The notes under the pieces: model-generated
Told to the model about the DNA's origin: nothing
Databases searched by the model: none
The model's input: the letters and a program-made list of their open reading frames with translations, nothing else
Made by a program: the position numbers and the translations under genes
Part shown: positions 33,682-57,993 of the stretch, piece by piece
Position numbering within the stretch: the stretch's first letter is position 1
Layout: every line of letters starts with the position of its first letter
DNA from: an uncultured Bacilli bacterium
Lineage (GTDB): Bacteria; Bacillota_I; Bacilli_A; RFN20; CAG-826
Assembly: GCA_944327845.1 (NCBI GenBank)
Contig: CALVHN010000002.1
Location: 5,326 to 69,325, forward strand
DNA length: 64,000 bases
Reading direction: 5' to 3'

Positions 33682-34464
33682 ATGAAAAAAACTATTAAAA
33701 ACAGTTCAAAAAGAAAATGGATTGTTGGTGGCGTTGCTTTCTTTGGAGCAGTAGCCTTACTTACAACAGGTTTTGCTACATGGGTTGTTGGTGCAAATCA
33801 AAATCAAGATAAAGAAGGAGTTAGCGTAACTGTTGACACTGCAAAAAATAACTCAATGCAATTTGATATAACATCAACTGGATTAACTATTACAGTTGGT
33901 GAAGGAGCTGCTGTAGCAGATGGTAAAATCTTAAACGTTCCACAAGAAGGAATAACTACACCAGATTTTGAAATTACAGTTGAATGGAGTTTATCTGCTG
34001 GTAAAGCTATTGCTGATACTATTACAGGAATAGAATTTAAACTTGAAGATACTAATAATACTGGTACTGATTTATTAGCAACTGCTTCTGATTCTGATAT
34101 AACTGGCACTGATTTAGCAGCAAGATCATCTTCAAGAACATATTTAGAATTAGTTACATCTGGTGATTCTGATACTTATAGTAATACTTATACGCATAAA
34201 ATAACTACATGGGATGAAGATTCAGAAGAATCTAGTGTAAAAACTATTGCCCATGGTGAAACTACATTGGAATTTTATTGGGGTGACTTCTTTGCTAATA
34301 AATTACCATCAGCTTTCTATAATGGTTTAACATATGGTGCTGATACAAATGCTGATATTGTCGCATGCTCTGATTATGTTTTAGATGAATTATCAGCAAT
34401 GGAAACTAATTTAGAAAAAGGTCTTACTATTACCGCTACAGTTGTAACCAATTCTGCAGATTAA
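33682..34464 (+). CDS. secreted protein with SipW-cognate signal peptide (TasA/camelysin-sized)
   Basis: N-terminus MKKTIKNSSKRKWIVGGVAFFGAVALLTTGFATWVVGA. Charged N-region, H-region, then GFATW, which is the SipW-cognate class signal. 260 aa, T/S/D-rich. AGGGGG RBS. Confidence 0.75.
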   Translation: MKKTIKNSSKRKWIVGGVAFFGAVALLTTGFATWVVGANQNQDKEGVSVTVDTAKNNSMQFDITSTGLTITVGEGAAVADGKILNVPQEGITTPDFEITVEWSLSAGKAIADTITGIEFKLEDTNNTGTDLLATASDSDITGTDLAARSSSRTYLELVTSGDSDTYSNTYTHKITTWDEDSEESSVKTIAHGETTLEFYWGDFFANKLPSAFYNGLTYGADTNADIVACSDYVLDELSAMETNLEKGLTITATVVTNSAD

Positions 34465-34491
34465 TTTTTACGACTAAAAGGATTTTTAAAA

Positions 34492-35307
34492 ATGAAAAAA
34501 TTAAGAAATAAAAAAACAATTATTCTTTCTCTTTGTGCTTTAGCTGCTATTTCATTAGGAACAGTTGGATTTGCTGCTTGGACAATTACTGCAGGAGATG
34601 CTACACCAAAAACTAGCAATATTGCTGTCACAACTGATGATTTAATCGATAAAAGATTAACTTTAAGTGACATTACAGTTGATGATGGAAATGTTAATTT
34701 TACTGCAAACACCGATACATTAGGTACTATTACTGGAACTGGTACTGAAGATTTAAGTTTTAAAATTTCTTTTACTATTTCTTCTGGGAACGCTGCATTA
34801 AATACTATAGTTGATAGCGTAAAGGTTGGTTTTTATGATTTAACCACCGGTAATACTAAATTAGATACAATTATTCCTACTTATATTCTTTCACCTATTG
34901 CAAAAACAGATAAAACTATTTTAACAGATCAACCTACTGGAGCTAGTGATGATGGTGTTGTTGAAGTTTTAACTGGTACAACTTTAGGTTCTAATGTTGG
35001 AGATACTGACGTTCTTTATAACACTCGTTATTCTGATGTTGATTCTGCTGATAAGGATAAGGTTGCATACACTTACTCAGTCAGTGATACAAATGAGCAA
35101 AAAACTACTGCTAAAGTAAGTATTACATTTAACTTTTTATGGAGTGATGTTTTTAATTATGAGAATCCAGTTTTAATTGATAAAGGTTCAAGTGATTACA
35201 CTGTCCCTAATGAAGTTGAAAATGGATTAAAAGCGATTGATAAAATTAATGATAATAGTAATGTAATTAAGATAGGACTTAAATTATTTGTTACTGCAAC
35301 AGAATAA
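34492..35307 (+). CDS. secreted protein with SipW-cognate signal peptide (paralog of upstream gene)
   Basis: N-terminus ...ALAAISLGTVGFAAWTITAG. 271 aa. Similar composition to the upstream gene. Confidence 0.75.
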   Translation: MKKLRNKKTIILSLCALAAISLGTVGFAAWTITAGDATPKTSNIAVTTDDLIDKRLTLSDITVDDGNVNFTANTDTLGTITGTGTEDLSFKISFTISSGNAALNTIVDSVKVGFYDLTTGNTKLDTIIPTYILSPIAKTDKTILTDQPTGASDDGVVEVLTGTTLGSNVGDTDVLYNTRYSDVDSADKDKVAYTYSVSDTNEQKTTAKVSITFNFLWSDVFNYENPVLIDKGSSDYTVPNEVENGLKAIDKINDNSNVIKIGLKLFVTATE

Positions 35308-35320
35308 TACTTTTTATTAA

Positions 35321-35352: not shown

Positions 35353-35363
35353 TAATATATTTT

Positions 35364-36488
35364 ATGTCTAGTATCGAGATTATTGCGTTAATTGTTACTA
35401 TCGTATGTCTTGTTAGCTTTTCAATTGTATTTACAGTTTTATTTAGACATTACTATAAGTCAAATATGGCAACAATTGAATCTGGAGAAGAAGATCTAGC
35501 TTTAATTGATTATGCAATTGAAGAAGAGAAAGCTAAAAAGAAAAAATCTAAGAAAGCCATACGAATTTCACTGAAAGTGTTATCTTACTTTATATTTGGT
35601 GTAATTTTAATTTTTTTTGGCATTTCTTTATATTCAAGATTTTCAAATAATGTAATGCCTTTTGGAGATACTTCCTTAATTGTAATTGCAACTGGTAGTA
35701 TGTCTGAAGTTAATGATAGTAATGATTATATATATGAACATAATCTTAATAATCAATTTAATGCTTATGATATCATTTCAATTTCAAAATATAAAAATCA
35801 AGAAGAAATCGATTTATATGATGTAATAGCATTCAAAAATGATGATGGAGATACCATTGTTCATAGAATAACTGAAATTATAACCCTAGATAGTGGAGAA
35901 GAAGTTTATATCACTCGTGGTGATGCTAACGCAGTTGATGATACTTACAATCAATATAGTAGTTATTTAACTTATGATGCAATAATTGGTAAATATAATG
36001 GTTTTAGAATTCCTGGAATCGGAATATTTGTTATATTTTTGCAGTCAAATGCTGGGATAATCACAATTATTGCTATTGCTTATTGTCTTTTCATGTTTGA
36101 TTTTTATAACACTAGATATGAAAACTTAATAACTGAAAGAACTAATAAATTAGTTGAATTATTAGATTATGATTTAGAAAAAAATAATATTGATGAATTA
36201 AATCTTATATATAAAGAAGAATTAATTTATCAAAATAATATCTACACATTTATTAAAGGAGAATTTGTTTCTAAAGAAGAAATTAAAGATGAAAATACAT
36301 TAAAGAAGATTAATGATTATCTTGTATTTATCAAAACTCAAGATGAAAAAGTTGATAAAAACAATATATTTATTAAAAAAGTATCAACAAACGAAACTAA
36401 AAAGATTGAGGATGTTGAAAAAAAAGAAATTAAAAATATTATCAATCAAGAAATTCCTGATGATAATTTAAATAATATAGATAACTAA
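35364..36488 (+). CDS. sipW: ER/archaeal-type signal peptidase I (SipW/Sec11 family) with long C-terminal extension
   Basis: N-terminal TM anchor, catalytic Ser box VIATGSMSEV, His box DTIVHRITEI, and TRGDANAVDD matching the Sec11/SipW KGDNNxxDD block. A second TM helix and a C-terminal tail of about 130 aa follow. Confidence 0.88.
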   Translation: MSSIEIIALIVTIVCLVSFSIVFTVLFRHYYKSNMATIESGEEDLALIDYAIEEEKAKKKKSKKAIRISLKVLSYFIFGVILIFFGISLYSRFSNNVMPFGDTSLIVIATGSMSEVNDSNDYIYEHNLNNQFNAYDIISISKYKNQEEIDLYDVIAFKNDDGDTIVHRITEIITLDSGEEVYITRGDANAVDDTYNQYSSYLTYDAIIGKYNGFRIPGIGIFVIFLQSNAGIITIIAIAYCLFMFDFYNTRYENLITERTNKLVELLDYDLEKNNIDELNLIYKEELIYQNNIYTFIKGEFVSKEEIKDENTLKKINDYLVFIKTQDEKVDKNNIFIKKVSTNETKKIEDVEKKEIKNIINQEIPDDNLNNIDN

Positions 36489-36506
36489 CATAGGAGGAAT
36501 GCAATT

Positions 36507-38342
36507 ATGAAAAAGTTAGCTATTAAAACGCACTTTACAAGAAAGAATTTAATCTTTCTCGGATTAATGTTCTTTTATTGCCTTTGTGCATTAATCGGAG
36601 CAGTAGGATGTGATGCTAGTGGAATGATGAAAGAAGGAAATCCAATTCAAGCAATCGGAACTGGATTTGGTTTTCCATTAATTAATGGAAGCGTTCAATC
36701 ATACATTTTAATCGTATTATTTTTAATTTATGTTTTATTCTTTACCGCTGCTTTTATTTATGAAATGAGGTTAGCTAAATATTATGAAAATAAAATATGG
36801 TCTAAAAAATGGGCAATAATATATGGTTCAACCTTTTTAATTTCTTTAGCTTTATGGTTAACAATTGGTTTAATTGCTCAATATCCATATAACGCTGAAA
36901 CAATTGGAAATTCATTCTTATTCTTAATCGAATCATTGTTTGTTGGATTTGTTATTTATGTTCTTCTCGCTTCAATTATTGCTGCAATTATTGTTTTATA
37001 TGTTAACTTTAAAAATATTGATAAACCATTTAAATTCTTCTCAAATAAAGCTGATCTTGCAATGGAAGAAGATTATTTAGAAGAAGAGCAAGAAAAGCTT
37101 GAAGCTCAAGATAATTTAGCTGCTTCATTTGGTGAAGAACAAGTAAATCAAAATGGTGAAGCTGTTTCTTCTAATGGTGCAAATATAAATAGTAACGGCA
37201 CAGGACAAGGTGTTGTAACTAATGTTAATGAAGAATTAAAAGATAAAGAAAAAGTATTTCCTGGCTTATGTTCAATTGATTTTATTATGGACAGTCAAGA
37301 AAATAATAAAACCTTTGATGATGATGTTACCTTAGAAGAACTTGTTACTAATTTTAGAAATTATTTAGCAAAAGTTGAAAAATTATACTTTGATAAAGAA
37401 ACTATTAGAGCATTTATTTCAGGTCTTGCTGCTTCTAGACTCATCATTTTAGAAGGTTTAAGTGGTACTGGTAAATCTTCCCTTGCTAGATATTTCTCTG
37501 AATTTATTGGAGAAAAATCTTTCTTTGAACCTGTTCAAGCTACATGGAGAGATCGTACTTCTTTACTTGGCTATTATAATGATTTTTCTAAAACCTATAA
37601 TGAAACAGAATTTTTAAAGAAATTATACCAAGCAACATTCCTCCCAAATAATATTAATATCATGGTTTTAGATGAATTAAATATTTCTCGTGTTGAATAT
37701 TATTTTGCTGATTTCCTTTCAATTTTAGAATATCCAATCGATCAATGGAAACTTAAAATCTTACAATTACCATATGATTTTGAAGCTCCAATGCATTTAG
37801 AAAATGGTATTTTAGATATTTCTCCAACTACTTGGTTTGTTGGAACAGCTAATAAAGATGATTCAACTTATACGATTACTGATAAGGTTTATGATAGAGC
37901 GATTACTATTTCATTTGATGATCGTAATGAACCTTTTGAAGTAGTTGAAGATGTTGAAAAAATTAATTTATCTTATACAAAACTTATTTCTTTATTTACT
38001 GAAGCTCAAGAAACTAAAGCATATCAATTCAATAAAGAAGATTATTTAAAATTTAAAAAACTTACTGATTTTACATATGATACTTTTGATGTTACTTTTG
38101 GTAACCGTATCTTACATCAAATTGAATTATTAGTTCCAGTTTATGTTGCAAGTGGTGGAAAAAAAGAAGAAGCATTAGATTTCATCTTTGCTCGTAAGAT
38201 TATCTTTAAACTTCAAGGAAGATTTGAAGATTATATTAAAAATGGTTTAAATGAATTATTAAAGATTATTAACGATACATATGGAAATGATTCATTTAAA
38301 AATACAAAACATGAAATTTCTCGTTTATTAAGAAAGTTATAG
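36507..38342 (+). CDS. polytopic membrane protein fused to McrB-like (AAA_5) NTPase domain
   Basis: 4-5 N-terminal TM helices, an acidic linker, then Walker A GLSGTGKSS. VLDELNISRVEYYFADFLSILE, WFVGTANKDDS and DKVYDRAITISFDD align with McrB blocks IIDEINRANLSKVFGELMMLME, YIIGLMNTADRS and DYALRRRFSFIE. Confidence 0.7.
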   Translation: MKKLAIKTHFTRKNLIFLGLMFFYCLCALIGAVGCDASGMMKEGNPIQAIGTGFGFPLINGSVQSYILIVLFLIYVLFFTAAFIYEMRLAKYYENKIWSKKWAIIYGSTFLISLALWLTIGLIAQYPYNAETIGNSFLFLIESLFVGFVIYVLLASIIAAIIVLYVNFKNIDKPFKFFSNKADLAMEEDYLEEEQEKLEAQDNLAASFGEEQVNQNGEAVSSNGANINSNGTGQGVVTNVNEELKDKEKVFPGLCSIDFIMDSQENNKTFDDDVTLEELVTNFRNYLAKVEKLYFDKETIRAFISGLAASRLIILEGLSGTGKSSLARYFSEFIGEKSFFEPVQATWRDRTSLLGYYNDFSKTYNETEFLKKLYQATFLPNNINIMVLDELNISRVEYYFADFLSILEYPIDQWKLKILQLPYDFEAPMHLENGILDISPTTWFVGTANKDDSTYTITDKVYDRAITISFDDRNEPFEVVEDVEKINLSYTKLISLFTEAQETKAYQFNKEDYLKFKKLTDFTYDTFDVTFGNRILHQIELLVPVYVASGGKKEEALDFIFARKIIFKLQGRFEDYIKNGLNELLKIINDTYGNDSFKNTKHEISRLLRKL

Positions 38343-38345
38343 AGT

Positions 38346-39746
38346 ATGAGTAAAGTTAACGATTATATCTTTAAATTTGATCAAGAAATAATAAAACTTG
38401 TAAAAAACATAGGTTTTAAAGACTTTTTAGAAATTTTAAGCAAGTTTTCTTTATCAACTTCTTATGATTTTGAAGATATAGCTTTAACTTTAAATGAAAT
38501 AAAAAATGTTTTAGATAAAATAACTTCAATAATTTATAAACCTCATATTAAAACAGATGTTACACCTATTATTAAAAGGAGTGAGCTTATATCTTCTTTT
38601 AATAAAGATTCTTTTATTGATACAGTTAAAGATACAAAACTTTGGAAAGAAAAGGGGTTAGAGTTTACTCCTGAATATGTTCATTCAATTGAAAATATTG
38701 ATACAATCGATAATTATGAAAATAAATTTATCGTTTTATTAATTGATTGTATTGATGAAAACTTTAATGAAATTAAAGATTCTTTATCGTTTATTAATGA
38801 TTCAATTGAAGAAAATTATCAAACTAAGAGTACTAATTTTACAAAATATGGAATATATCAAGAATTTGATACTTTTAAATATCCTTATGAAAGTTTCTTT
38901 AATTTATATGATGAAAGTATTACAACTTTAAGAGATAATATTTCAAAAATTAATCGTCGAATTAAAAATATAAAAGCTTCAGAATTTTATAAAAATCTTG
39001 CAAAATCTAAATTAAATTTAGGAAATATTATACCAACAAATGTTTTAATTCATGATGAATTATATAATTATTGTTATCGATATTTTAAAAACAATATTTT
39101 AACTAACGAAGAAAATAAATTATCTTTAAATGATTTTTTATATAACTATTTTGTAGTTAATTTAATTAAATATTTAAATATTAATAAAGTTAGGTCTAAT
39201 TATCGAACAAGTTTAACATTTAAAAATAATTTAATTAATTTTGGAGTAATTAATTTTAAAAAAGAATTTATTAATTTTTCTATCTCACATAATTTAAATT
39301 TAAATGGATTAGATATAGATGTAACTTTTAATGAAGATAAAGAAAATAATTCTAAATATTTAATTCTTTTTGAATATAACTTAATTGAAAATAATTATTC
39401 AAATTTAAAAAGAATAATCGAACAAAACCAAAATAAATATAGTGAAATTATTTTAATTACTTCAAATAATGTAATTAAAAAATTTGATAATGTAATGTAT
39501 TTTTCAATATATGATTCATTTAAAAATAAAATTAATTTATTTAATAACTTATTTAAATCTTTTAGTTTCATTTTTAAAGTATCAAGTAAATCTTATAAAC
39601 ATAAATGTCCAGTATGTGGAGAGCATAACATTTATCAAATTAATAAGAATTATCAATGCTTAGACTGTAAAAGTAGATATTCTCTATTTGATTTTAATAA
39701 TCAAAAGTTATTATGGATTAAGTCGTTAAGGAGGGATGATCAATGA
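38346..39746 (+). CDS. hypothetical protein with C-terminal zinc ribbon; possible McrC-like partner
   Basis: 466 aa, starting 4 nt after the McrB-like gene. C-terminal CPVCGEHNIYQ...CLDCKSRY is a CxxC...CxxC zinc ribbon. Any nuclease motif is not confidently seen. Confidence 0.45.
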   Translation: MSKVNDYIFKFDQEIIKLVKNIGFKDFLEILSKFSLSTSYDFEDIALTLNEIKNVLDKITSIIYKPHIKTDVTPIIKRSELISSFNKDSFIDTVKDTKLWKEKGLEFTPEYVHSIENIDTIDNYENKFIVLLIDCIDENFNEIKDSLSFINDSIEENYQTKSTNFTKYGIYQEFDTFKYPYESFFNLYDESITTLRDNISKINRRIKNIKASEFYKNLAKSKLNLGNIIPTNVLIHDELYNYCYRYFKNNILTNEENKLSLNDFLYNYFVVNLIKYLNINKVRSNYRTSLTFKNNLINFGVINFKKEFINFSISHNLNLNGLDIDVTFNEDKENNSKYLILFEYNLIENNYSNLKRIIEQNQNKYSEIILITSNNVIKKFDNVMYFSIYDSFKNKINLFNNLFKSFSFIFKVSSKSYKHKCPVCGEHNIYQINKNYQCLDCKSRYSLFDFNNQKLLWIKSLRRDDQ

Positions 39747-40555
39747 GTACAAATAAAGAATTAGATCAAACTTTAGCTATGGCTGAAGTTGAAAATAAAG
39801 ATGAAGTTAAAGAAAGTAATGATATTTTAATTATTGATCATCTTTATAAATCTTATGGAAATAAAAAGAATAAACATGATGTTTTAATTGATCTTAATTT
39901 AACTGTAAAAAAAGGTGAAGTTTTTGGATTTATTGGTAAAAATGGTATTGGAAAATCAACAACTATTGATTGTATTGTTGGTTTAAAAGAACAAGATGAA
40001 GGACATATTATTGTTGATGGAATGGATACTTTAATTAATCCATTAGAAGTTAAAGAAATTATTGGATATGTTCCTAGTGAACCAATAAGTTATGAAATGA
40101 TGAGTGGAAACGAGTATTTACAATTTATTGCTTCAATTTATGGAATGGTTCAAGCTTCATTTATTAATAATTACAATTACTTAGTTCATAAATTTAATAT
40201 GAGCAATGCTGATATGAATCGTAAGATTAAAGAATATTCTCACGGTATGAAACAAAAAATATGTTTAATGGCTTCCTTAATTCATAATCCTAAATTATGG
40301 ATTTTGGATGAACCTACTGTTGGTCTTGATATTATGGTTTATGATACTTTAGTTAAAATGATTAAAGATTTTGCTTCTAATGGTCGAACTGTATTTGTAA
40401 CATCTCATAATATTGATATGGTCACTAAGATTTGTGATCGTGTTGCTATAATTAATGAGGGAAAAGTTGTAAGACTTTATGATTTAAATTTAGATCCAAT
40501 AAAAAGAAGAGATCTTAATAAAATATTCTTTAAGATTTATGGAGAGAATAATTAA
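39743..40555 (+). CDS. ABC transporter ATP-binding protein
   Basis: Walker A GKNGIGKST, a signature-like YSHGMKQK, and Walker B ILDEPTVGLD. The start overlaps the upstream stop (ATGA). Confidence 0.85.
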   Translation: MSTNKELDQTLAMAEVENKDEVKESNDILIIDHLYKSYGNKKNKHDVLIDLNLTVKKGEVFGFIGKNGIGKSTTIDCIVGLKEQDEGHIIVDGMDTLINPLEVKEIIGYVPSEPISYEMMSGNEYLQFIASIYGMVQASFINNYNYLVHKFNMSNADMNRKIKEYSHGMKQKICLMASLIHNPKLWILDEPTVGLDIMVYDTLVKMIKDFASNGRTVFVTSHNIDMVTKICDRVAIINEGKVVRLYDLNLDPIKRRDLNKIFFKIYGENN

Positions 40556-50424: not shown

Positions 50425-53097
50425 ATGAAAAATAAACTTACTTATATTAAGAAACTTAATCGAAACATTATCTTCTCTTTTACAGGAGTTTTTTTATTAA
50501 CGATAGGTTTTTCATCTTGGTCAGTTTCTGCTGGTGGAGAAGGAACAACAACCCAAGGAAATATAAATGTTTCGGATACGATTACATATAAAGATTCTTT
50601 TAAGTTAAAAATAAACAAAGAATATGATAGAGAAGAATTTTTAAATGGTGCAAGTGTAAGTGATCCAAATAATTATTACAAATTAGAAAGTGAATTAAAT
50701 TGGAAAAATAAAAATTCTAACTCTAATTATAATGGTGATTTAACAGATTATTTTTCAATATATGATAGCAAAGATCCAACTGGAGAAAATTCTCCATTTT
50801 TATATAACTATGAAACATCTAAAAATATAAATTTCGAGAATTATAAAATTGCTTTTAATGATGAAGGTGGAAGTTTAACTTCGACAATACATTATGCATA
50901 TAATTATGATTACTTGGATACAAACAACTCGAGTTTTGATCAAAACGAAATAAATCGTCAAATGGAAATAGTTTCAAATTTAATTAATCCTCAAAACGGG
51001 GATGAGGTAGAATGGGGCGAATGTCAAACTTCTGGTTTCCCAAGTGGAATAAAAGTCTATTACACAAAAGTATTATCATCGAATAATTATGAATATAGAT
51101 TTCATGTCTTTTATCATTGTGTTGGCTCAAATACAATATGTCGAGCTGATTCAAGTTATAATTCCTCTGCTACAGAATCAAGTACTCAAAATGTTACTCC
51201 ATCTTTAACTTTTGTTTCGCCTATAGACCAAAGTAGCGTTCAAAAAAATGGAGCAGCAAGTTTAGTAGTTAAAGCCACTAATCTTTCAAATTCAAATAGA
51301 ACTATTTCATTATCTCAAAATAGGTTTAACAATGTTGCTGGACAAGATGGAGAATTCGATGTAGTAGATTTAAATAAAACATTATCTGATTTTGAACCTT
51401 ACTATAATTTATGTGATTCCTATGCTTTAACTCATTCAGAAGAAATTAAACCAATAAAAAGTGGGGAGACAGTCGAGGTTGAGGCTATTTCTCAAATTGA
51501 TGAAAGCAGTAATATTTCAAACTCAAATAACCCTTGGTTTTATGTAGTTGGAACAAGAAATAAAATAACTAATAGTTCAAATATAACTTATTATAACGGC
51601 TATAGATATTATTTTTTCTACTTCAGGATGCAAGATGATAAGCTTTGTGTAGCTAGTGTTAATAATACAACTGGTGTTTCAAGCCCAACTGGAGTTTATA
51701 ACAGTGCTAGTAATAATTATAACAGTTCAAATTCAATTACAAATAGTGATTGGCCTTTAGTTATTGTTCGAACTAATAATGGAAAAAGCTATAATTTTGA
51801 AGGACAATCTGCCAATTCCAATGCAAATAGTAGTTCATTAACTCCTTATAGTAGATATAGTAGAAGTTATGTTAGATATTTTGTTACTTTTAAGAAAAAT
51901 GAATCCTCTGATTATTCAAATATAAGCGATAACTACGTTTATTTTAATGGAGATTACTATAACAATATTGATAAAACTAAAAAAAGAGAAGACTTTGACA
52001 TGGATTCTTTAATAAATTATTTAAAAATAAATAATGGTTACTATAATAATTTACCAAGTGGCGACGAGACTATATTTGAGGAATATTATAACGAAGATCT
52101 TCCTTATTTATATTTTATTATTAGTAAACGTAAAAAAAGTAACAATAAATATTATTATTTTGCTATCAATATGTTTTGTTATTTTACAGGTGATAATAGT
52201 ACTAATAACAATCAAATAAAACTCACTCAAATAAATTACAGTGGCAATAGTACTAGTAACGAGACAGATTCTGATTTATTTACATTCAATGTTCATTCTG
52301 AAAGCGAGACAAGTTATCCAAGTCATATTTCAGGAAGTTATCATGATGAAGGCAGTTATATTTATTTTGATGTAAGTTATACAAATAATAATGGGAGTGT
52401 AGTTAATACAAAAAACGCTAGATTAAATTTTGCTAGTAATGCTGGTTCAAGTATAGGCTATAAACACACTGATTTTAATTGTACTGCATTAGAACAAAAT
52501 AATGAAAAATTTAATTCAATTTATAGCTTTAATAATTGTTACAGTTTATTTAATGAAATTGACAATGATAAAGATTATTCTTTTAACGCATATTTAAAAA
52601 CACATTCTTCAGGAAGAAATGTTTGGAATTTTAGTGGTTATTATAGTCGTGTAGGATATGCAAACTTTGTTGATTTTTCAAATATGTATACTTTTTCCTC
52701 AAGTTTGTACCAAACTAATTACTCCGCTCAAGGTACTACTGAAAACAATACAAATAAATTCATAACTGAAGATGAAATGGATTCTAATTATTATCTTGAA
52801 AGTGCTGAACCTTATTATGTTTCTAGAAAAGATCCTTCAATGGTTGAATATACTTTTAAAAATAGCATGACGAATGATACAAAAAAATATTTTCTTTATG
52901 TTCCATCAATTGGAAACACCACTAAAGATAGAGTTCATTTGATACTAGATAAAATCAAAACAAAAAATATTAATTTTGATTACAATATGACACTTATTCC
53001 TAAGAATGATGAAATAAAAAATAATATGCAAGAAATAGTTAATTGCTTTGATTTTGATTTAAATATTTCAATAAAGAATTACGAGGTTTTTAGATGA
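50425..53097 (+). CDS. giant SipW-cognate secreted protein, first gene of the rightward operon
   Basis: N-terminus ...IIFSFTGVFLLTIGFSSWSVSAGG. 890 aa, N/S/Y-rich. Its stop overlaps the next start (ATGA). Confidence 0.7.
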   Translation: MKNKLTYIKKLNRNIIFSFTGVFLLTIGFSSWSVSAGGEGTTTQGNINVSDTITYKDSFKLKINKEYDREEFLNGASVSDPNNYYKLESELNWKNKNSNSNYNGDLTDYFSIYDSKDPTGENSPFLYNYETSKNINFENYKIAFNDEGGSLTSTIHYAYNYDYLDTNNSSFDQNEINRQMEIVSNLINPQNGDEVEWGECQTSGFPSGIKVYYTKVLSSNNYEYRFHVFYHCVGSNTICRADSSYNSSATESSTQNVTPSLTFVSPIDQSSVQKNGAASLVVKATNLSNSNRTISLSQNRFNNVAGQDGEFDVVDLNKTLSDFEPYYNLCDSYALTHSEEIKPIKSGETVEVEAISQIDESSNISNSNNPWFYVVGTRNKITNSSNITYYNGYRYYFFYFRMQDDKLCVASVNNTTGVSSPTGVYNSASNNYNSSNSITNSDWPLVIVRTNNGKSYNFEGQSANSNANSSSLTPYSRYSRSYVRYFVTFKKNESSDYSNISDNYVYFNGDYYNNIDKTKKREDFDMDSLINYLKINNGYYNNLPSGDETIFEEYYNEDLPYLYFIISKRKKSNNKYYYFAINMFCYFTGDNSTNNNQIKLTQINYSGNSTSNETDSDLFTFNVHSESETSYPSHISGSYHDEGSYIYFDVSYTNNNGSVVNTKNARLNFASNAGSSIGYKHTDFNCTALEQNNEKFNSIYSFNNCYSLFNEIDNDKDYSFNAYLKTHSSGRNVWNFSGYYSRVGYANFVDFSNMYTFSSSLYQTNYSAQGTTENNTNKFITEDEMDSNYYLESAEPYYVSRKDPSMVEYTFKNSMTNDTKKYFLYVPSIGNTTKDRVHLILDKIKTKNINFDYNMTLIPKNDEIKNNMQEIVNCFDFDLNISIKNYEVFR

Positions 53098-55502
53098 AAA
53101 CAAAAGGTTTAGGATTTATTTTATCAATTTTAATTATATCTTTATTTTCTATTGGTTTAGCTTCTTTTAATCTTGAAAATAATGATACTAGATATGACTT
53201 TCAAGTGGATGAAACAGGAGAGAATTATATTACTTTAAATTATAATGATGGAATAACCCCTGAACATAAAGTTTATTTTGAAGGAAGTACTATAAGTATA
53301 AATTCATTTATGAAATATCCTACACCTCAAAATTCTTTAAATCATACTTTTATCGGATGGTATACTACTAAAAGTGGTTTTAATGAAGATGGAACATCTT
53401 CAAAATATAATGAAGAAGAACTATCAAGTGGTTCAACTTTATATGCAAAATATATTAATAATTCTAATCAAAGTATTACTGAAAATAATCAAATTCCTAT
53501 AACAATTAGTCCGTCTAATTTAGGAAGTTCATCAAATAATCAATACTATTATTTTTCTGGTATTTCTGATAGCACACCTATATTAGAAACAATTATAACT
53601 AAAAAAGGTTCTTTAAATGTTAATTCTTCTCTTGGAGCTTATTCTGATGGAAGTCAAGGAACGGATCAACAGGTGAAATTACCATCAGAAGCAGATTTAA
53701 TTCTTGTTCTTGATTCAGATCTTGTAATTGAAGGAGAGGTTAATATAAGCGCTGTTTTAGGTGGAAGTACAGGTAACTTACAAGCAATGATTACCAGTAA
53801 TTTTTCGGCAATAGATTTAAACGGATATACGATTACTATAAGAAATGATGGCTCTTTAAATGGTTATGGAATGATATATAATTCTCAGGATACTGGAGGA
53901 ATCATTGTAGAAAATGGAAGCATAACTACTCCGTTTGTTGTTTATGGCTTTAAAGGAGGAGGACTAACTGGTTGGTCTTGGGCTAGTGCATTGTCTCCTT
54001 TTTCTAATTTTTTATGTCCATATTTATCTTGTGAAATATTATTTACAAGCGGCGGAAAATTAGTAGGAAAAACTTCTTTATATGCAAACGATGACGAAAA
54101 TGTAACTACTATTAATTTAGTAGGAAATTCTGAAGATTATTTAGTTCAAATAAATAGAGGATTTTTAATAAGAAGGCAAACGAATTATTTAAAATATGTA
54201 AGCGAAAGACTCACTCTTAATAATACAATTACAACATTTTATGATTTACTTGATGCAAATTATCGTGAAAATTTTATTTTTACTAATAACCCATCAGAAA
54301 AGATTAAATATCTTGATAAAAAAAGAACTGAATATTATGTTTGTGATCGTGCCGATATAAATATTAATACGTTAGATATGCCAATAGAAACTGGTCTTGC
54401 ATCTTTAAATGTAAGCATGAAATATGTTGATTTTCCTATTCCTTCTTTTTTTGATATTGAATTTTATAATTCTAATATTTATTTTGGGTTAAGTTTAGCA
54501 TTTATGCCAAGTAGCACGTGTTTTATCGATGAAAATTCAATTTTAAATTTTTTTGCAACAGATGGTGGTAGAAAATACACATATGATATCTTTGCTCGAA
54601 TTAGTACGATAGACCATTATTATACAAGTTTAAACTATACTGTTAATGGAAGTAGAGTTGGTATGTTTAACCAAGGTAATCCTTCGATTTATATTTCACA
54701 AGGCTTAATGAATTCAACAAAACCTGCAGAAGTAACAATTGAAGGTTTAATTAATTTTGACTTTAATAGTTCTTATAGTTCTAGCAAGGATGCGTTATAT
54801 TCGATTTATTCAATAGGTGGCAGAGTAAATTTATCTCAAGAATCTTTAAATGAGATTTTTTTAAATTCAGAAAAAATTAATATATATAATTCTTATTGTA
54901 ATTATACTTATTTCACACCTGGGAGTAGGCAATATTATTTTAATATTTGTCATTATTTTACTTATCCTTTAATTTCAAATGATAAAGCATATATTCAGTT
55001 AGATTTAAATACTAACGATGACGAAGAAAAATATGAACTTGTTGAATGCGATAGTTTCGATTTAAATAATCAACTTTATACTTATCAGAATAAAACGTAT
55101 TTCTATAATTTTATAAATCCAACTACAAATTTAGCGTGTGGAGGTATTTTTGGCTTGACTAGTTATACTGATTGTCCTGGCGAAACCAATACTAATAATA
55201 AGTTAAATAATTTATATGGAGTTTGGACAGAATGTGAAAAAGGAATAGTAAATAACAATAAAAATTATGTTTATTATATCAAAACTACTCAAAATGGCAT
55301 TTCTACATATTACATTAAAATGGCAGGAGCATATCTTAAATGCGATGAAGAACCACAATTAAATGAGTTAAATAAGATGAATGATGTTTCTATTACTGAA
55401 AATGGAAAATTTAATGCAGATGGCTCCTCAGGTTATACAATTGGTTCAACAGCTTATTTTGATTATGACTACTTTAATGAATGGAGATTTAACTATGAGT
55501 AA
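53094..55502 (+). CDS. giant SipW-cognate secreted protein with Listeria-Bacteroides (Flg_new) repeat
   Basis: N-terminus ...ILSILIISLFSIGLASFNL. HTFIGWYTTKSGFNEDG...LYAKY Flg_new motif. 802 aa. Confidence 0.7.
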   Translation: MKTKGLGFILSILIISLFSIGLASFNLENNDTRYDFQVDETGENYITLNYNDGITPEHKVYFEGSTISINSFMKYPTPQNSLNHTFIGWYTTKSGFNEDGTSSKYNEEELSSGSTLYAKYINNSNQSITENNQIPITISPSNLGSSSNNQYYYFSGISDSTPILETIITKKGSLNVNSSLGAYSDGSQGTDQQVKLPSEADLILVLDSDLVIEGEVNISAVLGGSTGNLQAMITSNFSAIDLNGYTITIRNDGSLNGYGMIYNSQDTGGIIVENGSITTPFVVYGFKGGGLTGWSWASALSPFSNFLCPYLSCEILFTSGGKLVGKTSLYANDDENVTTINLVGNSEDYLVQINRGFLIRRQTNYLKYVSERLTLNNTITTFYDLLDANYRENFIFTNNPSEKIKYLDKKRTEYYVCDRADININTLDMPIETGLASLNVSMKYVDFPIPSFFDIEFYNSNIYFGLSLAFMPSSTCFIDENSILNFFATDGGRKYTYDIFARISTIDHYYTSLNYTVNGSRVGMFNQGNPSIYISQGLMNSTKPAEVTIEGLINFDFNSSYSSSKDALYSIYSIGGRVNLSQESLNEIFLNSEKINIYNSYCNYTYFTPGSRQYYFNICHYFTYPLISNDKAYIQLDLNTNDDEEKYELVECDSFDLNNQLYTYQNKTYFYNFINPTTNLACGGIFGLTSYTDCPGETNTNNKLNNLYGVWTECEKGIVNNNKNYVYYIKTTQNGISTYYIKMAGAYLKCDEEPQLNELNKMNDVSITENGKFNADGSSGYTIGSTAYFDYDYFNEWRFNYE

Positions 55503-57993
55503 AAATAATAAGTTAGTGAAAAAAATCTTTTATATTACTACTCCATCGTTAGTAGTAGGCTCTTTAGCTGGTGTTGGTTTTTCTTCTTTCGTTTTGGGTG
55601 AAGATCAAAGTGAAACAACAAATATAAATATTGAAACTGGTAATCTTGAAATGGTTTCAAGCGTTTATTTTAATAATGTTTCTATGCTTTCAAGAAATAT
55701 TAATTTTGATGCATTTCAATTAGATAATTTTGGAAAAGTAACATCGACTAATTCTTCAGAACAACTAACAATTAGATTTACTGGAACATTAAATGGATAT
55801 AACACAAATTGGGATGAAATTAGATTTAATATTAGAATAAGTAATGAATTTAAATATGTTTTTGAACAATTAATTGATGATAAATTAATTGAAGAACCAA
55901 TATTTCATCCACTAAAAAAGGGTAGTAGCAATAAGTCTATATCTACAAATGAGATAGGTAGTTTTTGGACAAGCGATGCAACAAGCAATGATACAAGAAA
56001 TTTTGTAGTATATGCAGAATTTAATTGGGGAGAATATTTTAATAATATGAATCCTTCGTTATTTTTTGATTCAAATAATAGTAATGGAATCAAAAAAGGA
56101 AATGAATATACTACAAATGAAATTAGAGAAATTTTAGATAGAATTAAAGAGCTGGATAATGCAGATTATACAATATATATCGATCCTTTCATTAATAGTG
56201 AAACAAATTATAGTGTAACATTAGATGCTAATGGTGGTTCTTTTGAATTTAACAACACTAACTCTACTACTAAATTGTTCGATAATTTGATTGATCACGA
56301 TAAAATTATTTTACCTGTACCTTTCTATTCTAGAAATTCTTTTCTTTATTGGAGAAATGACTCAACAGGAGAAACCTTTGATGGAAATGAAAGAATTTAT
56401 ATCGATGAAATTTTTAAGAATAATTCACAAAAAAGTTTAATTTTAAAGGCTTTTTGGAGAAATATTGAAGCAAATGGCACAGTTGAATTTAATACAAATA
56501 GTGAAAGTATGCCTTCAAATTTAACGGTTTATGTTAAATCAAAAAGTGAAACTTCAACATATTATGATTTTAATAATAATGTTGGCGGAACAATTCATGC
56601 TTTAATTGGAGATAAAATAAGAATTTCTAATTCAAGTGGTGTTAAAGAAGTTTTCTTTGAAGGTCTATCAGCACAACCTGATCTCTATGGATTTTATGAA
56701 GTTATAAATTCAAATTTTACTATAACAATTACCCCTAGGAGAGCATTTTATATTAATATTTCCTATAATACAATTTCAGGTGAAGCAGTTTCTCCTAAAT
56801 ATGTAATGTTTTCTTTAGTTAAGGACAATGGAGAACCAAGTATTTATAATCAAAGTGAAACTAATCAAATACCAGTTGGTGAAGGTGAGAAAATCTTATT
56901 AAATAATGTACATGGTGTTGATTCCATTATTTATAATGGAAATGATATAAATAATAGCGATAATTATATAAGTGTTACTGAAAACATTAATTTAAGTATT
57001 ACACCTCAAAATTCTTTAACTGTTACTTTAAATAAGGTAAACATTAATAATGGAGAAACGCCAAATGTCAACTATACAGTCACTAATAGTTCTGGAGTTG
57101 AAATTTGCAATTTAAATACTGGTAATATTAGCGGTAACAGCTATACCATTAGTAATACCCTTGCGGTAGGAGATAATATTGTATTTAATGTTAATGCTTC
57201 AACAAATGTTAGCGCAATATCACCTGATAAAATTTCTAATATTCAAGGGAATGCTTCTGTTTCTGTAACCCCAACAGAAGGTGGATGTTTTACAAAAGGA
57301 ACTTTGATTTTAATGGGGGATAATACTTATAAGAAAATTGAAGATTTGAAGGTTGGTGATATTATCAAAACATATTCGCATAATAATGGATGTTTTGAGA
57401 ACCAACCATTAACATATATCTCATATCATTCAACAAGAATTTACAAAGTATTAAAACTTACATTTGAAGATAATGTTTCAATTAATGTTTTATTTGCCCA
57501 TGGCTTCTTGAATGCTAATACAAAAAAATATGAAGAAATTGGTTATGATAATGTTAAAAATAAGATTGGAAATGAATATATTTTTGTTGAAAACAATAAA
57601 TTAGTTAGAAAAACACTAGTTTTTTATGAAATTTATGAAGAACAGACTGAATGTTATTCTTTAACAAGTGCATATAATCTTAATCATATAATTAATGGAG
57701 CGTTATGTATTGCTGACGATATTTCTGGTTTATATAATTACTTTGAACTTGATGATAATTTTAATTATGACAAAGAAAAACAAAAAGCTGATTTATTAAA
57801 ATATGGTATTTTAGAATATGATAAAGTATCGTACTTTATTCCTAAAATAATTTACGATTTATTTAACGCCAAATACTTGAGCGTTTCTATTGGGAAAGGA
57901 TTAATTACAATAGAAACAATGGAAAAATATGTAAGAACATTTTTCAACAATGAAATTATTGACAATCTGGCTATGTCTTTTCATATTAGATGA
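55495..57993 (+). CDS. giant SipW-cognate secreted protein with Flg_new repeat, C-terminal Hint domain and conserved extension
   Basis: Start moved to ATG at 55495 (MSKNNKLVKK...), which overlaps the upstream stop. N-terminus ...LVVGSLAGVGFSSFVLG. Flg_new motif SFLYWRNDSTGETFDG...LKAFW. Hint N-block GCFTKGTLILMGDNTYKKIEDLKVGDII and C-block YSLTSAYNLNHIINGALC. Tail homologous to the 45975-48887 protein. Confidence 0.7.
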   Translation: MSKNNKLVKKIFYITTPSLVVGSLAGVGFSSFVLGEDQSETTNINIETGNLEMVSSVYFNNVSMLSRNINFDAFQLDNFGKVTSTNSSEQLTIRFTGTLNGYNTNWDEIRFNIRISNEFKYVFEQLIDDKLIEEPIFHPLKKGSSNKSISTNEIGSFWTSDATSNDTRNFVVYAEFNWGEYFNNMNPSLFFDSNNSNGIKKGNEYTTNEIREILDRIKELDNADYTIYIDPFINSETNYSVTLDANGGSFEFNNTNSTTKLFDNLIDHDKIILPVPFYSRNSFLYWRNDSTGETFDGNERIYIDEIFKNNSQKSLILKAFWRNIEANGTVEFNTNSESMPSNLTVYVKSKSETSTYYDFNNNVGGTIHALIGDKIRISNSSGVKEVFFEGLSAQPDLYGFYEVINSNFTITITPRRAFYINISYNTISGEAVSPKYVMFSLVKDNGEPSIYNQSETNQIPVGEGEKILLNNVHGVDSIIYNGNDINNSDNYISVTENINLSITPQNSLTVTLNKVNINNGETPNVNYTVTNSSGVEICNLNTGNISGNSYTISNTLAVGDNIVFNVNASTNVSAISPDKISNIQGNASVSVTPTEGGCFTKGTLILMGDNTYKKIEDLKVGDIIKTYSHNNGCFENQPLTYISYHSTRIYKVLKLTFEDNVSINVLFAHGFLNANTKKYEEIGYDNVKNKIGNEYIFVENNKLVRKTLVFYEIYEEQTECYSLTSAYNLNHIINGALCIADDISGLYNYFELDDNFNYDKEKQKADLLKYGILEYDKVSYFIPKIIYDLFNAKYLSVSIGKGLITIETMEKYVRTFFNNEIIDNLAMSFHIR

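What the first reader, a model, noticed from the sequence alone, without database searches (positions are those of the whole stretch)
33682..57993. About 25-kb island dedicated to SipW-dependent surface or secreted proteins
At least eight proteins carry the same unusual N-terminus: a basic region, a hydrophobic stretch, then GF[AS][ST][WF] (GFATW, GFAAW, GFSTF, GFSSF, GFSSW, LASF, GFSSF). This is the class of signal peptide cleaved by the ER-type peptidase SipW in Bacillus (TasA, TapA). The genes are 33682, 34492, 48887(-), 45975(-), 50425, 53094 and 55495, with 42171 as a possible member. A bona fide SipW homolog with Sec11 catalytic motifs lies inside the cluster at 35364. Beyond the two TasA-sized proteins the cargo includes proteins of 800-970 aa carrying Flg_new repeats and Hint domains. 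This is a much larger SipW secretome than the known tapA-sipW-tasA amyloid module. In a Mollicutes-like, AT-rich genome it suggests an undescribed SipW-dependent surface fibre or adhesin system.
Basis: partly seen in the sequence, partly recalled or inferred. Interest (0 to 1): 0.8.

Follow-up and report, generated by a model that had tools for sequence, protein, structure and literature searches.

The report
Dedicated signal peptidase and cargo operon
A gut bacterium of the reduced-genome Bacilli ("RF39-like") carries a conserved operon in which an archaeal/eukaryotic-type signal peptidase sits next to a family of exported proteins that all share one unusual cleavage motif, together with a membrane GTPase borrowed from a restriction system, and next to it a DNA-inversion switch that flips between two sets of large surface proteins.

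Summary
The motif G[FL][AS][STA][WF] occurs seven times in the window (0.2 expected), always after a basic and hydrophobic N-terminus and always inside 33682-57993. 42171 is not a member. 35364 is an ER/archaeal-type signal peptidase I with invariant Ser112, His167 and Asp187/193, but it is atypical: 374 aa, three membrane helices, and just below curated HMM cut-offs.

The "island" has two parts. The left half, 33682-45835, is a nine-gene operon kept in the same order in 78 species of gut "Bacilli/Mollicutes" MAGs. It holds 1-7 motif-bearing ~250-aa proteins, the peptidase, a membrane-anchored McrB-like NxD GTPase, a McrC-like DUF2357/zinc-ribbon protein, an ABC exporter, an anchored beta-helix protein and a lipoprotein. 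The right half holds variable large cargo, two with Hint-like ends.

Between the two divergent cargo operons lies an 872-bp invertible segment carrying a serine recombinase. Metagenome contigs show it in both orientations.

The cargo does not match TIGR04088, TasA or any Pfam family, and its predicted fold is not TasA-like. Its inferred cleavage site, G-F-A|T-W, shares aromatic P2 and P2' with TasA. The GTPase-peptidase link matches "CoCoPALM", a class named in 2024 but never described. I rate it a new variant of a known kind.

The parts
33682..34464 (+). Cargo A, 260 aa. Founder of the ~250-aa 'GF-A|x-W' protein family. The signal peptide (res 1-32) ends in TTGFA|TW. The mature part is a beta-sandwich with a long C-terminal helix.
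   Evidence: Motif. Family: 328 homologues and 1766 50%-cluster representatives at E<=1e-3. No Pfam or NCBIfam hit. AF2 model pLDDT 74, pTM 0.70. No significant PDB fold match. The signal peptide is far more conserved than the mature part.
34492..35307 (+). Cargo B, 271 aa, a paralogue of A; signal ends in TVGFA|AW.
   Evidence: The A-family HMM hits B at E 1e-37. Motif. Present upstream of the peptidase in 51 of 78 loci.
35364..36488 (+). ER/archaeal-type signal peptidase I (SipW/Sec11-like), 374 aa. It has three predicted TM helices (6-24, 72-90, 221-239), the catalytic domain at about 95-215, and a conserved cytoplasmic tail of about 130 aa.
   Evidence: NF046067 SipW 56.4 bits and TIGR02228 49.6 bits, both below cut-off. 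PDB SEC11C/A E about 1e-7, with the VHR and GDxNxxDD boxes aligned. S112, H167, D187 and D193 are invariant in 27 homologues. TM helices.
36507..38342 (+). Membrane-anchored McrB-like AAA+ GTPase, 611 aa. Four N-terminal TM helices, an acidic/low-complexity linker, Walker A GTGKSS, Walker B VLDE, and the signature N449-K-D451-D (NxD type).
   Evidence: AAA_5. McrB PDB chains E 0.1-0.3 over the AAA domain. PADLOC PDC-M26A 1.5e-38. Invariant motifs. TM helices. Next to the peptidase gene in 78 of 78 loci. The NxD clade is described in PMC11090510.
38346..39746 (+). McrC-like partner, 466 aa. DUF2357 helical bundle, an alpha/beta domain with no conserved nuclease residues, and a C-terminal CxxC...CxxC zinc ribbon.
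39743..40555 (+). ABC transporter ATP-binding subunit (DrrA/ABC-2 exporter type).
   Evidence: PF00005 5.8e-25; TIGR01188 8e-53. Present in 74 of 78 loci.
40555..42168 (+). ABC permease, 537 aa, about 12 TM helices.
   Evidence: PF16949 E 0.001 over nearly the full length. TM helices. Present in 71 of 78 loci.
42171..44705 (+). N-terminally anchored 844-aa extracellular protein with a right-handed beta-helix region. It is not a motif carrier. Its TM anchor is nearly invariant.
   Evidence: PF13229 in 3 of 22 family members. Invariant M1, L10 and P13. N-termini listed. Present in 67 of 78 loci.
44726..45835 (+). Lipoprotein (lipobox LTSC), 369 aa, with tandem GEDGxGI-type repeats and a C-terminal Flg_new/List_Bact_rpt domain.
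   Evidence: PF09479 2.6e-7; TIGR02543 4.5e-6. Present in 60 of 78 loci.
45975..48887 (-). Large cargo H1, 970 aa. Signal ends in SVGFS|TF. Large passenger, then a Hint-like module starting at Cys741 and a conserved tail of about 90 aa.
   Evidence: Motif. Hint_2 E 0.0027. 32% identity to the C-terminal 220 aa of H2. Conserved Cys/His pattern.
48887..49546 (-). Cargo C, 219 aa. Signal ends in SVGFS|SF. First gene of the leftward cargo operon.
   Evidence: Motif. No family hit. No homologue in the 78 loci.
49550..50421 (.). Invertible DNA segment of 872 bp, bounded by perfect 21-bp inverted repeats TAAAAGTTCATAAATGTATAC (49550-49570 and 50401-50421). Each repeat ends 3 nt before the ATG of a divergent cargo gene.
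   Evidence: Inverted repeat. Only two copies in the window, none in shuffles. Contigs L079, L080 and L082 are 100% identical to the window but carry this segment inverted; L081 is collinear.
49642..50235 (-). Serine recombinase (DNA invertase type), 197 aa from the ATG behind a GGAGGA ribosome-binding site. It lies inside the invertible segment.
   Evidence: PF00239 1.2e-26; NF009949 Mpi-type invertase 2e-14. Gene call of 197 aa. Sequence.
50425..53097 (+). Large cargo D, 890 aa. Signal ends in TIGFS|SW. First gene of the rightward cargo operon.
   Evidence: Motif. No family hit. A D-like gene follows the lipoprotein gene in L045.
53094..55502 (+). Large cargo E, 802 aa. Signal ends in SIGLA|SF.
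   Evidence: Motif. In five other species, E-like genes with relaxed motifs sit between the peptidase and GTPase genes.
55495..57993 (+). Large cargo H2, 832 aa. Signal ends in GVGFS|SF. An A-like N-terminal domain (res about 24-221), Ig-like/Flg_new-like middle, then a Hint-like module from Cys598 and the conserved tail.
   Evidence: Motif. The A-family HMM hits at E 1.3e-7. Hint, Hint_2 and Hom_end_hint at E about 1e-3. PDB 6y75 Hint-like chain at E 0.04. Alignment.

Best explanation
The locus encodes a dedicated export and processing system for cell-surface proteins, conserved in RF39-like gut Bacilli.

Proposed steps:
1. Cargo proteins enter the membrane through Sec, using a special N-terminus: a K-rich n-region, an h-region of about 17 residues, then [TS][VTI]-G-F-[AS]-[TSA]-[WFY]-[IV][IV]-[GS].
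2. The operon's own ER-type Ser/His signal peptidase cleaves them after G-F-[AS]. P3 and P1 are small; P2 and P2' are aromatic. TasA has the same arrangement, which resists bacterial LepB-type peptidase and requires SipW.
3. The main cargo is a family of ~250-aa beta-sandwich proteins (1-7 tandem genes). Their new N-terminus, T-W-V-V-G plus a flexible stretch of about 20 residues, probably lets them assemble on the cell surface as a polymer or coat.
4. Large proteins carrying the same signal are accessory adhesin-like cargo. One of them has an A-like domain.
5. A membrane-anchored McrB-type NxD GTPase, its McrC-like partner (nuclease probably inactive), an ABC-2 exporter, an anchored beta-helix protein and a lipoprotein are obligatory partners. 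They most likely supply energy and a scaffold for assembly or release.
6. In this species a Hin-like 872-bp inversion chooses which end of the recombinase segment faces each of two alternative cargo operons (219+970 aa versus 890+802+832 aa). This gives phase variation of the accessory cargo.

Shown: the motif, its linkage to the peptidase, the catalytic residues, the conserved gene order, the McrB/McrC identity, and the inversion.

Inferred: the cleavage position, the dependence of cargo on this peptidase, polymer formation, the role of the GTPase and ABC exporter, and the transcriptional effect of the switch.
For: - Motif enrichment and position in the window.
- Across 78 species loci, 172 of 188 strict motif hits are N-terminal. 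Nearly all of the roughly 210 relaxed-motif hits lie on the peptidase strand (210 of 212), most within 7 kb upstream of the peptidase gene and a second group just downstream of the lipoprotein gene.
- In the logo, G is 100%, F 88%, A/S 97% and W/F/Y 100%.
- Unrelated proteins (A/B family, C, D, E, H1) share the motif, so it behaves as a transferable signal and not as inherited sequence.
- Peptidase: invariant S112, H167, D187 and D193, with alignment to the SEC11 His and GDxNxxDD boxes.
- PMC10269814 shows that aromatic P2' and Trp at P2 make the TasA site refractory to LepB, while SipW cleaves it.
- The nine-gene order is conserved in 60-78 of 78 loci.
- GTPase: Walker A and B and N-K-D-D are invariant, with 4 TM helices.
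- PMC11090510 reports an NxD McrB clade with TM fusions linked to signal-peptidase genes, named CoCoPALM.
- The A model has a low-confidence N-terminal arm (res 32-52) ahead of a confident beta-sandwich. SipW-processed BsaA uses a disordered N-terminal arm for donor-strand exchange (PMC11580942).
- Inversion seen in independent samples.
Against: - No cargo N-terminus matches TIGR04088. The peptidase is below the curated cut-offs.
- The A fold has no significant match to TasA or any other fibre subunit, so polymer formation is conjecture.
- Cleavage is not demonstrated. The whole signal peptide of A orthologues is much more conserved than the mature domain. That could mean it is kept as a membrane anchor and not removed.
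- I could not examine whole genomes. It is therefore unknown whether these organisms have another signal peptidase I, or whether the motif is confined to this locus.
- The roles of the GTPase and the ABC exporter are inferred only from invariant gene linkage.
- The promoter scan in the invertible segment found no more sites than chance.
Confidence: 0.55

Rival explanations
1. Housekeeping peptidase. In these reduced genomes the SipW-like enzyme is the only general signal peptidase I. G-F-A-x-W is simply the lineage's usual cleavage site, and the cluster reflects gene duplication of surface proteins beside it.
For: Many Mollicutes-like reduced genomes lack a LepB-type enzyme (my own knowledge, not tested here). 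The peptidase is present in every one of the 78 species loci. Whole genomes could not be inspected.
Against: The same loci encode secreted-looking proteins with ordinary AxA-type sites and no aromatic P2', for example two in L020 and one each in L065 and L066. Lipoproteins use lipoboxes. Within about 1.3 Mb of loci, motif carriers concentrate within 7 kb upstream and just downstream of the operon. The 39 kb of the window outside the region has none. The peptidase carries extra TM and cytoplasmic domains and is locked in an operon with an NTPase module. That is not expected of a housekeeping enzyme.
Confidence: 0.15
2. Uncleaved anchors. The conserved N-terminus is a permanent membrane anchor, with G-F-A-x-W sitting at the membrane surface. 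The proteins stay tethered or polymerise through their TM helices as pilins do, with the McrB-like GTPase as the extraction or assembly motor. The peptidase acts on only a few of them, or at a later release step.
For: The signal peptide of A orthologues is far more conserved (87% majority residue) than the mature part (40%). The TM anchor of 42171 orthologues is also nearly invariant. For BsaA, cleavage by SipW has been proposed to follow assembly on the membrane (PMC11580942). The CoCoPALM authors proposed 'pilus assembly'.
Against: G at 100% and A/S/G at 100% at the positions that fit the -3/-1 rule are the signature of a signal peptidase I site. In B, C, D, E and H cargo the h-region is generic and only the motif is kept. 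The catalytic residues of the adjacent peptidase are invariant.
Confidence: 0.15
3. Defence module plus bystanders. The McrB-like and McrC-like genes, perhaps with the ABC ATPase, form an anti-phage system of the McrBC/CoCoNuT kind that happens to sit beside surface-protein genes.
For: PADLOC candidate-defence model PDC-M26A hits the GTPase at 1.5e-38, and the ABC ATPase hits several defence ATPase models. The NxD McrB clade is mostly discussed as restriction or conflict systems (PMC11090510).
Against: The GTPase has four TM helices where McrB has its DNA-binding domain. The McrC-like protein has no invariant nuclease residues. The position between the peptidase and the ABC genes is fixed in 75-78 of 78 species. 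That pattern fits a core operon and not a mobile defence island. No methyltransferase or nuclease gene is nearby.
Confidence: 0.08
4. TasA-type amyloid or fibre module, enlarged. A and B are TasA/BsaA homologues that form biofilm fibres.
For: Similar size, linkage to a SipW-type peptidase, an aromatic P2/P2' site, and a flexible N-terminal arm in the model.
Confidence: 0.07

Closest known systems
tapA-sipW-tasA (Bacillus subtilis), sipW-calY (B. cereus) and sipW-bsaA-bsaB-bsaC (Clostridium perfringens)
   Same: An ER/archaeal-type Ser-His signal peptidase is encoded in an operon with its own substrates. The substrate site has small P1 and aromatic P2 and P2' (TasA: G-T-W-A|A-F; here: G-F-A|T-W). 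There are several cargo genes, including non-fibre cargo, as with BsaC. Mature cargo has a flexible N-terminal arm (PMC10269814, PMC11580942).
   Different: The cargo does not match TIGR04088, TasA or BsaA by HMM or by fold. The peptidase is twice as long, with an extra TM helix, a cytoplasmic loop and a tail. The operon always also contains a McrB-like GTPase, a McrC-like protein, an ABC exporter, a beta-helix protein and a lipoprotein. Cargo includes 800-1085-aa proteins with Hint-like ends. The hosts are uncultured reduced-genome gut Bacilli.
[quoted passage not shown]
   Same: McrB-like GTPase of the NxD clade, with NxD followed by a second Asp. Its N-terminal region contains TM helices. 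It is paired with a DUF2357 McrC homologue that carries a zinc ribbon and a probably inactive nuclease region. It is genomically associated with a signal-peptidase family gene.
   Different: The published description is one paragraph, with details deferred to a later paper that I did not find. The FtsB-like homology and long coiled coils described there were not tested here, and the linker looks short. Cargo, signal motif, ABC exporter, taxon range and phase switch are not described there.
Hin/Gin/Mpi-type DNA inversion switches (Salmonella flagellar phase variation, Bacteroides invertible promoters)
   Same: A serine invertase is encoded inside, or next to, a segment of about 0.9 kb bounded by short inverted repeats. 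Both orientations coexist in natural populations. The switch lies directly upstream of surface-protein operons.
   Different: This switch sits between two divergent operons, so one inversion could swap them. The repeats end 3 nt before both start codons. No promoter or enhancer was identified. The switch is specific to this species and absent from the 78 related loci.
Hedgehog/intein (Hint) and bacterial intein-like domains in secreted proteins
   Same: The module begins with a Cys after a small residue, has a conserved His in the block-B position, and is followed by a short conserved C-terminal region. It lies at the end of a large extracellular passenger.
   Different: Pfam scores are below gathering thresholds. 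The C-terminal 90-aa tail is conserved between paralogues, unlike the variable tail of polymorphic toxins, and no immunity gene follows. Autoprocessing is untested.

Membership tests
ER/archaeal-type signal peptidase I (SipW/Sec11; TIGR02228, NF046067) | Catalytic Ser and His (no Lys), with the conserved Asp residues of the GDxNxxDD box | tested here: met
   S112, H167, D187 and D193 are invariant in 27 homologues. The VHR and GDxNxxDD boxes align to human SEC11A/C.
ER/archaeal-type signal peptidase I (SipW/Sec11; TIGR02228, NF046067) | Score at or above the curated HMM cut-off | tested here: not met
   TIGR02228 scores 49.6 against a cut-off of 51.85. NF046067 scores 56.4 against 190. A 12-14-residue insertion follows the Ser box.
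ER/archaeal-type signal peptidase I (SipW/Sec11; TIGR02228, NF046067) | Compact protein of about 160-190 aa with one N-terminal anchor (SipW also has a C-terminal TM helix) | tested here: not met
   374 aa, three TM helices, a charged cytoplasmic loop and a conserved tail of about 130 aa.
ER/archaeal-type signal peptidase I (SipW/Sec11; TIGR02228, NF046067) | Cleaves the signal peptides of its neighbours | not testable with these tools
   Needs N-terminal mapping and an active-site mutant.
TIGR04088 SipW-cognate class signal peptide | HMM match at 19 bits or more | tested here: not met
   None of the 7 N-termini hits, even at E<=10.
TIGR04088 SipW-cognate class signal peptide | Small P1 flanked by aromatic P2 and P2' | tested here: met
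   Logo of 219 N-termini: F 88% at P2, A/S 97% at P1, W/F/Y 100% at P2'. The cleavage position is inferred from the -3/-1 rule. TasA comparison from PMC10269814.
TIGR04088 SipW-cognate class signal peptide | Encoded next to a SipW-type peptidase gene | tested here: met
   Motif genes lie directly upstream of the peptidase gene on the same strand in at least 69 of 78 loci.
TasA/camelysin/BsaA fibre subunits | Sequence-family match (Peptidase_M73, NF046066, TIGR04090) | tested here: not met
   No hits for A, B or C. An A-family profile search against PDB sequences finds no TasA.
TasA/camelysin/BsaA fibre subunits | TasA-like jelly-roll fold | tested here: not met
TasA/camelysin/BsaA fibre subunits | N-terminal donor strand that polymerises subunits | tested here: inconclusive
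   Residues 32-52 are low-confidence and start with the conserved T-W-V-V-G. No multimer prediction was possible.
CoCoPALM (PMC11090510) | McrB-like GTPase with NxD (not NxxD) signature, usually followed by D or E | tested here: met
   N449-K-D451-D452, with N449 and D451 invariant in 26 sequences. Definition taken.
CoCoPALM (PMC11090510) | GTPase fused to an FtsB-like TM plus coiled-coil region; coiled coils on both partners | tested here: inconclusive
   Four N-terminal TM helices are present. FtsB homology and coiled coils were not tested. The McrC-like model has long helices.
CoCoPALM (PMC11090510) | McrC (DUF2357) partner gene | tested here: met
CoCoPALM (PMC11090510) | Association with a signal-peptidase family gene | tested here: met
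   The peptidase gene is immediately upstream in 73 loci and one gene away in 5, of 78.
McrBC type IV restriction system | DNA-binding N-terminal domain on McrB | tested here: not met
   The N-terminal 170 residues are four TM helices.
McrBC type IV restriction system | Active PD-(D/E)xK nuclease in McrC | tested here: not met
Hin-type invertible switch | Serine recombinase, flanking inverted repeats, and both orientations observed | tested here: met
   PF00239 1e-26. Perfect 21-bp inverted repeats. L079, L080 and L082 are inverted; L081 and the window are collinear, all at 100% identity.
Hin-type invertible switch | Outward promoter inside the segment that drives the adjacent operon | tested here: inconclusive
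   The consensus scan found 9 sites against 8.1 expected.
Hint domain | Pfam gathering score | tested here: not met
   Scores are 17.8-19.8 bits against cut-offs of 28-32.
Hint domain | N-terminal Cys and block-B His conserved | tested here: met
   [SG]-C-[FV]xxGT and ..H[GA].. are conserved in four proteins from three species.

The most novel reading that the evidence does not exclude
A previously undescribed surface-assembly machine. An ER-type signal peptidase is physically coupled, through its extra TM and cytoplasmic domains, to a hexameric membrane McrB-type GTPase and its McrC-like activator. Together they recognise a highly conserved N-terminal segment and use GTP hydrolysis to release and polymerise beta-sandwich subunits into a fibre or coat on reduced-genome gut Bacilli. 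Interchangeable tip proteins are loaded through the same signal, processed by Hint-mediated self-cleavage, and chosen by DNA inversion. This would be the first assigned function for the CoCoPALM branch of McrBC. It would also be a clear case of a restriction-system motor re-used for protein assembly.
Probability: 0.25. Interest if true: 0.85.

Novelty: new variant of a known kind. Interest (0 to 1): 0.7.

Why it matters
RF39-like Bacilli are common, uncultured members of human and animal gut communities, and almost nothing is known about their cell surface. This locus gives them a defined, conserved surface-protein pathway with a simple sequence tag. The tag, G-F-[AS]-x-[WFY] after a hydrophobic stretch, can be used to list the pathway's cargo in any genome.

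The locus extends the SipW principle, a dedicated ER-type peptidase for sites that ordinary signal peptidase cannot cut, to a new signal variant and to a new cargo family of at least 1766 sequence clusters with no annotation.

It also gives concrete content to CoCoPALM, a branch of the McrBC family that has been named but not described. It suggests that a McrB-type GTPase has been recruited from DNA restriction to a membrane protein-assembly task.

The inversion switch is documented in natural samples. It shows that these organisms vary their large surface proteins, which bears on host and phage interactions.

Tried and rejected
- **TIGR04088, TasA, camelysin and BsaA membership.** Scanned with NCBIfam and Pfam, including isolated N-termini at E<=10 and a TasA positive control. 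No hits.
- **42171 as a motif carrier.** Rejected; it is a conserved signal anchor.
- **The 25-kb region as one mobile island.** Rejected. The left half has conserved gene order in 78 species. Base composition is not distinct. The only tRNA in the window is about 6 kb beyond the region (63870-63940). The only recombinase is the small invertase.
- **McrBC-type defence.** Considered because of the PADLOC hit. Judged unlikely for lack of a DNA-binding domain and nuclease residues, and because of fixed synteny.
- **Polymorphic-toxin reading of the Hint proteins.** Considered. The tails after the Hint module are conserved between paralogues and no immunity-like gene follows, so it was not adopted.
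- **Promoter and terminator scan of the switch.** No better than chance.
- **Rfam scan for a leader riboswitch.** Only RNase P and one tRNA elsewhere in the window.
- **Literature searches.** SipW+RF39, SipW+Mollicutes and RF39+'signal peptidase' gave nothing relevant. A search for a CoCoPALM follow-up found none, and the supplements of the eLife paper held as text had no CoCoPALM details.
- **Organism name for the window.** Not available from the cluster look-up. NCBI taxonomy places Ca. Onthovivens only in Bacilli. The RF39 assignment rests on my knowledge of GTDB.
- **Profile searches for 42171 and the GTPase against PDB sequences.** These added little.

Full report
**1. The observation**

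The window is chromosomal DNA of about 26% G+C that reads cleanly in table 11. Upstream genes include rpoB, rpoC, recA, rny and miaB. fba ends at 32778, and dinB(-) and cdaA follow at 58233. RNase P is class B.

The pattern G[FL][AS][STA][WF] occurs exactly seven times in all six-frame ORFs of at least 100 aa. All seven sit behind a K/R-rich stretch and a hydrophobic stretch near an ORF start, and all lie between 33682 and 57993. The expected count is 0.24, and the largest count in 500 within-ORF shuffles was 3.

The carriers are 33682, 34492, 45975-48887(-), 48887-49546(-), 50425, 53094 and 55495. The eighth candidate, 42171, has a different N-terminus and is not a member.

**2. The peptidase**

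The product of 35364 scores 56 bits on the SipW model and 49.6 bits on the archaeal-type signal peptidase I model. The cut-offs are 190 and 51.85. It matches human SEC11A and SEC11C at E about 1e-7, with the VHR and GDxNxxDD boxes aligned.

In 27 diverse homologues, Ser112, His167, Asp187 and Asp193 are invariant. It is therefore an ER/archaeal-type Ser-His enzyme, but an atypical one. It is 374 aa long and has an extra N-terminal TM helix and a charged loop. It also has an insertion after the Ser box, a third TM helix and a conserved cytoplasmic tail.

**3. A conserved operon, not an island**

A scan of species-representative genomes found 78 loci. All are in uncultured gut "Bacilli/Mollicutes bacterium" MAGs, Ca. 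Enteromonas, Ca. Onthovivens or Clostridium sp. CAG:568. By my own knowledge of GTDB, these are order RF39.

tblastn with every island protein shows one fixed gene order in 60-78 of the 78 loci:
- A-like and B-like cargo genes
- the peptidase
- 36507
- 38346
- the ABC ATPase
- the ABC permease
- 42171
- lipoprotein 44726

In the window these genes are separated by 57 nt or less, or overlap. By contrast, 45975-57993 is poorly conserved. Of its six genes, the 219-aa cargo gene (48887-49546) and the recombinase gene have no homologue in the 78 loci. Homologues of the other four appear in only 1-10 loci. The flanking housekeeping genes are not linked to the operon in other species.

**4. The signal**

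In the 78 loci, 172 of 188 strict motif hits are N-terminal. With a slightly relaxed pattern, 219 N-termini give this logo:
- a K-rich n-region
- a hydrophobic region of about 17 residues
- [TS][VTI]-G(100%)-F(88%)-[A57/S40]-[T/S/A]-[W85/F12/Y3]-[IV][IV]-[GS]

The genes lie in tandem (1-7 copies) within 7 kb upstream of the peptidase gene. A second group lies just downstream of the lipoprotein gene. Of the 212 hits in the loci, 210 are on the peptidase strand.

Unrelated proteins carry the motif. These include the A/B family, the E-like 840-990-aa proteins inserted between the peptidase and 36507 in five species, and 800-1085-aa proteins in L022 and L028. The motif therefore acts as a transferable signal.

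The -3/-1 rule places cleavage after G-F-[AS]. This leaves aromatic residues at P2 and P2'. TasA has the same arrangement (G-T-W-A|A-F). Experiments show that the P2' Phe and the P2 Trp make that site refractory to LepB, while the archaeal-like SipW cleaves it (PMC10269814).

Formal membership of TIGR04088 is not: none of the seven N-termini scores, whereas a TasA control scores 38 bits.

**5. The cargo**

A and B are paralogues (E 1e-37). The first 220 residues of 55495 form an A-like domain (E 1e-7).

The family has no Pfam or NCBIfam model. It comprises 1766 50%-identity clusters at E<=1e-3, almost all of 230-300 aa.

One feature is unexplained. The signal peptide of A orthologues is much more conserved than the mature domain: 87% against 40% majority residue.

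**6. The other core genes**

*36507.* It has four TM helices followed by an AAA+ domain with invariant Walker A and B motifs and N449-K-D451-D. It matches McrB weakly in the PDB and PADLOC model PDC-M26A strongly.

*Link to the literature.* The McrBC census of Bell et al. (PMC11090510) defines an NxD clade, with "NxD usually followed by E or a second D". Within it the authors name "CoCoPALM": GTPases fused to TM/coiled-coil regions and associated with signal-peptidase genes. The details were deferred to a later paper. I found no follow-up. The present operon fits that description.

*Remaining genes.* 39743 and 40555 encode an ABC-2-type exporter. 42171 is an anchored beta-helix protein. 44726 is a lipoprotein with a Flg_new domain.

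**7. The variable half and the switch**

45975-48887(-) and 55495 share a 220-aa C-terminal module at 32% identity. The module begins with a conserved Cys, has a conserved His and ends in a conserved tail of about 90 aa. It is also present in cargo of L022 and L028. Hint models hit it below threshold.

Between the divergent genes 48887-49546(-) and 50425(+) lies a serine invertase gene. It is flanked by perfect 21-bp inverted repeats at 49550-49570 and 50401-50421, each ending 3 nt before a start codon.

Three contigs from other samples (L079, L080, L082) are 100% identical to the window but carry 49550-50421 inverted. One contig (L081) is collinear with the window. The inversion is therefore real and occurs in nature. 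Its effect on transcription is inferred, because the promoter scan was uninformative.

**8. Interpretation**

The best-supported reading is a dedicated export and processing pathway. Cargo with the GF-A|x-W signal is cleaved by the operon's own ER-type peptidase. A-family subunits probably assemble on the surface, and large proteins are accessory cargo. The McrB/McrC-derived GTPase module and the ABC exporter are obligatory partners of unknown step. In this species a Hin-like switch varies the accessory set.

The rivals are scored in their own sections. They are a housekeeping peptidase, uncleaved anchors, a defence module with bystander genes, and true TasA homology.

Two gaps matter most. 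No whole genome could be inspected, and there is no direct evidence of cleavage or polymerisation.

**9. Novelty**

SipW-type dedicated processing is known, and CoCoPALM has been named. The following are new in the literature I could search:
- this signal variant
- the unannotated cargo family
- the complete nine-gene architecture and its taxonomic range
- the Hint-ended cargo
- the inversion switch

I rate the finding a new variant of a known kind, with interest 0.7.

Noticed in passing
window 49550-50421: An 872-bp invertible segment carrying a serine recombinase gene, bounded by perfect 21-bp inverted repeats. Other metagenome samples hold it in the opposite orientation at 100% sequence identity.
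   Followed up: yes
window 33682-33792 (residues 1-37 of cargo A) and alignment A2: The predicted signal peptide of A orthologues is far more conserved (87% majority residue) than the mature protein (40%). This is the reverse of ordinary Sec signal peptides. The TM anchor of 42171 orthologues is also nearly invariant.
   Followed up: partly
L048 11006-13657, L055 11031-13994, L059 9799-12312, L061 11019-13907, and L057: In five species a large (840-990 aa) relative of 53094 is inserted between the peptidase and the McrB-like gene. These proteins carry relaxed motifs (ANGTF, GSSSF, GNASF, GSAAY).
   Followed up: partly
window 32993-33538: A 181-aa three-TM protein is encoded just upstream of cargo A. 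It has homologues in the same position in only 2 of 78 loci (L002, L034) and no family hit.
   Followed up: no
window 55381-55502: The longest ORF for the last cargo gene starts at 55381 inside the previous gene. The signal-peptide pattern shows the real start is 55495, overlapping the stop of 53094 by 8 nt.
   Followed up: yes
window 49547-49570 and 50401-50424: Both divergent cargo genes lack a recognisable Shine-Dalgarno sequence, because the inverted repeat occupies positions -4 to -24. Cargo A (GGGGGA) and the recombinase (GGAGGA) have strong ones.
   Followed up: no
window 13658-13987 (+) and 63870-63940 (-): RNase P RNA class B (258 bits) and one tRNA. The class B RNase P fits a Bacilli/Mollicutes-type host.
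   Followed up: no
window 22965-27787: Two adjacent genes for fused ABC ATPase-permease proteins of 667 and 939 aa, unrelated to the operon's ABC exporter.
   Followed up: no
L008 and L063: Two contigs of the same MAG (CALVMF01) each carry a copy of the peptidase-GTPase pair. Some genomes may therefore hold two such operons, or the MAG may be mixed.
   Followed up: no
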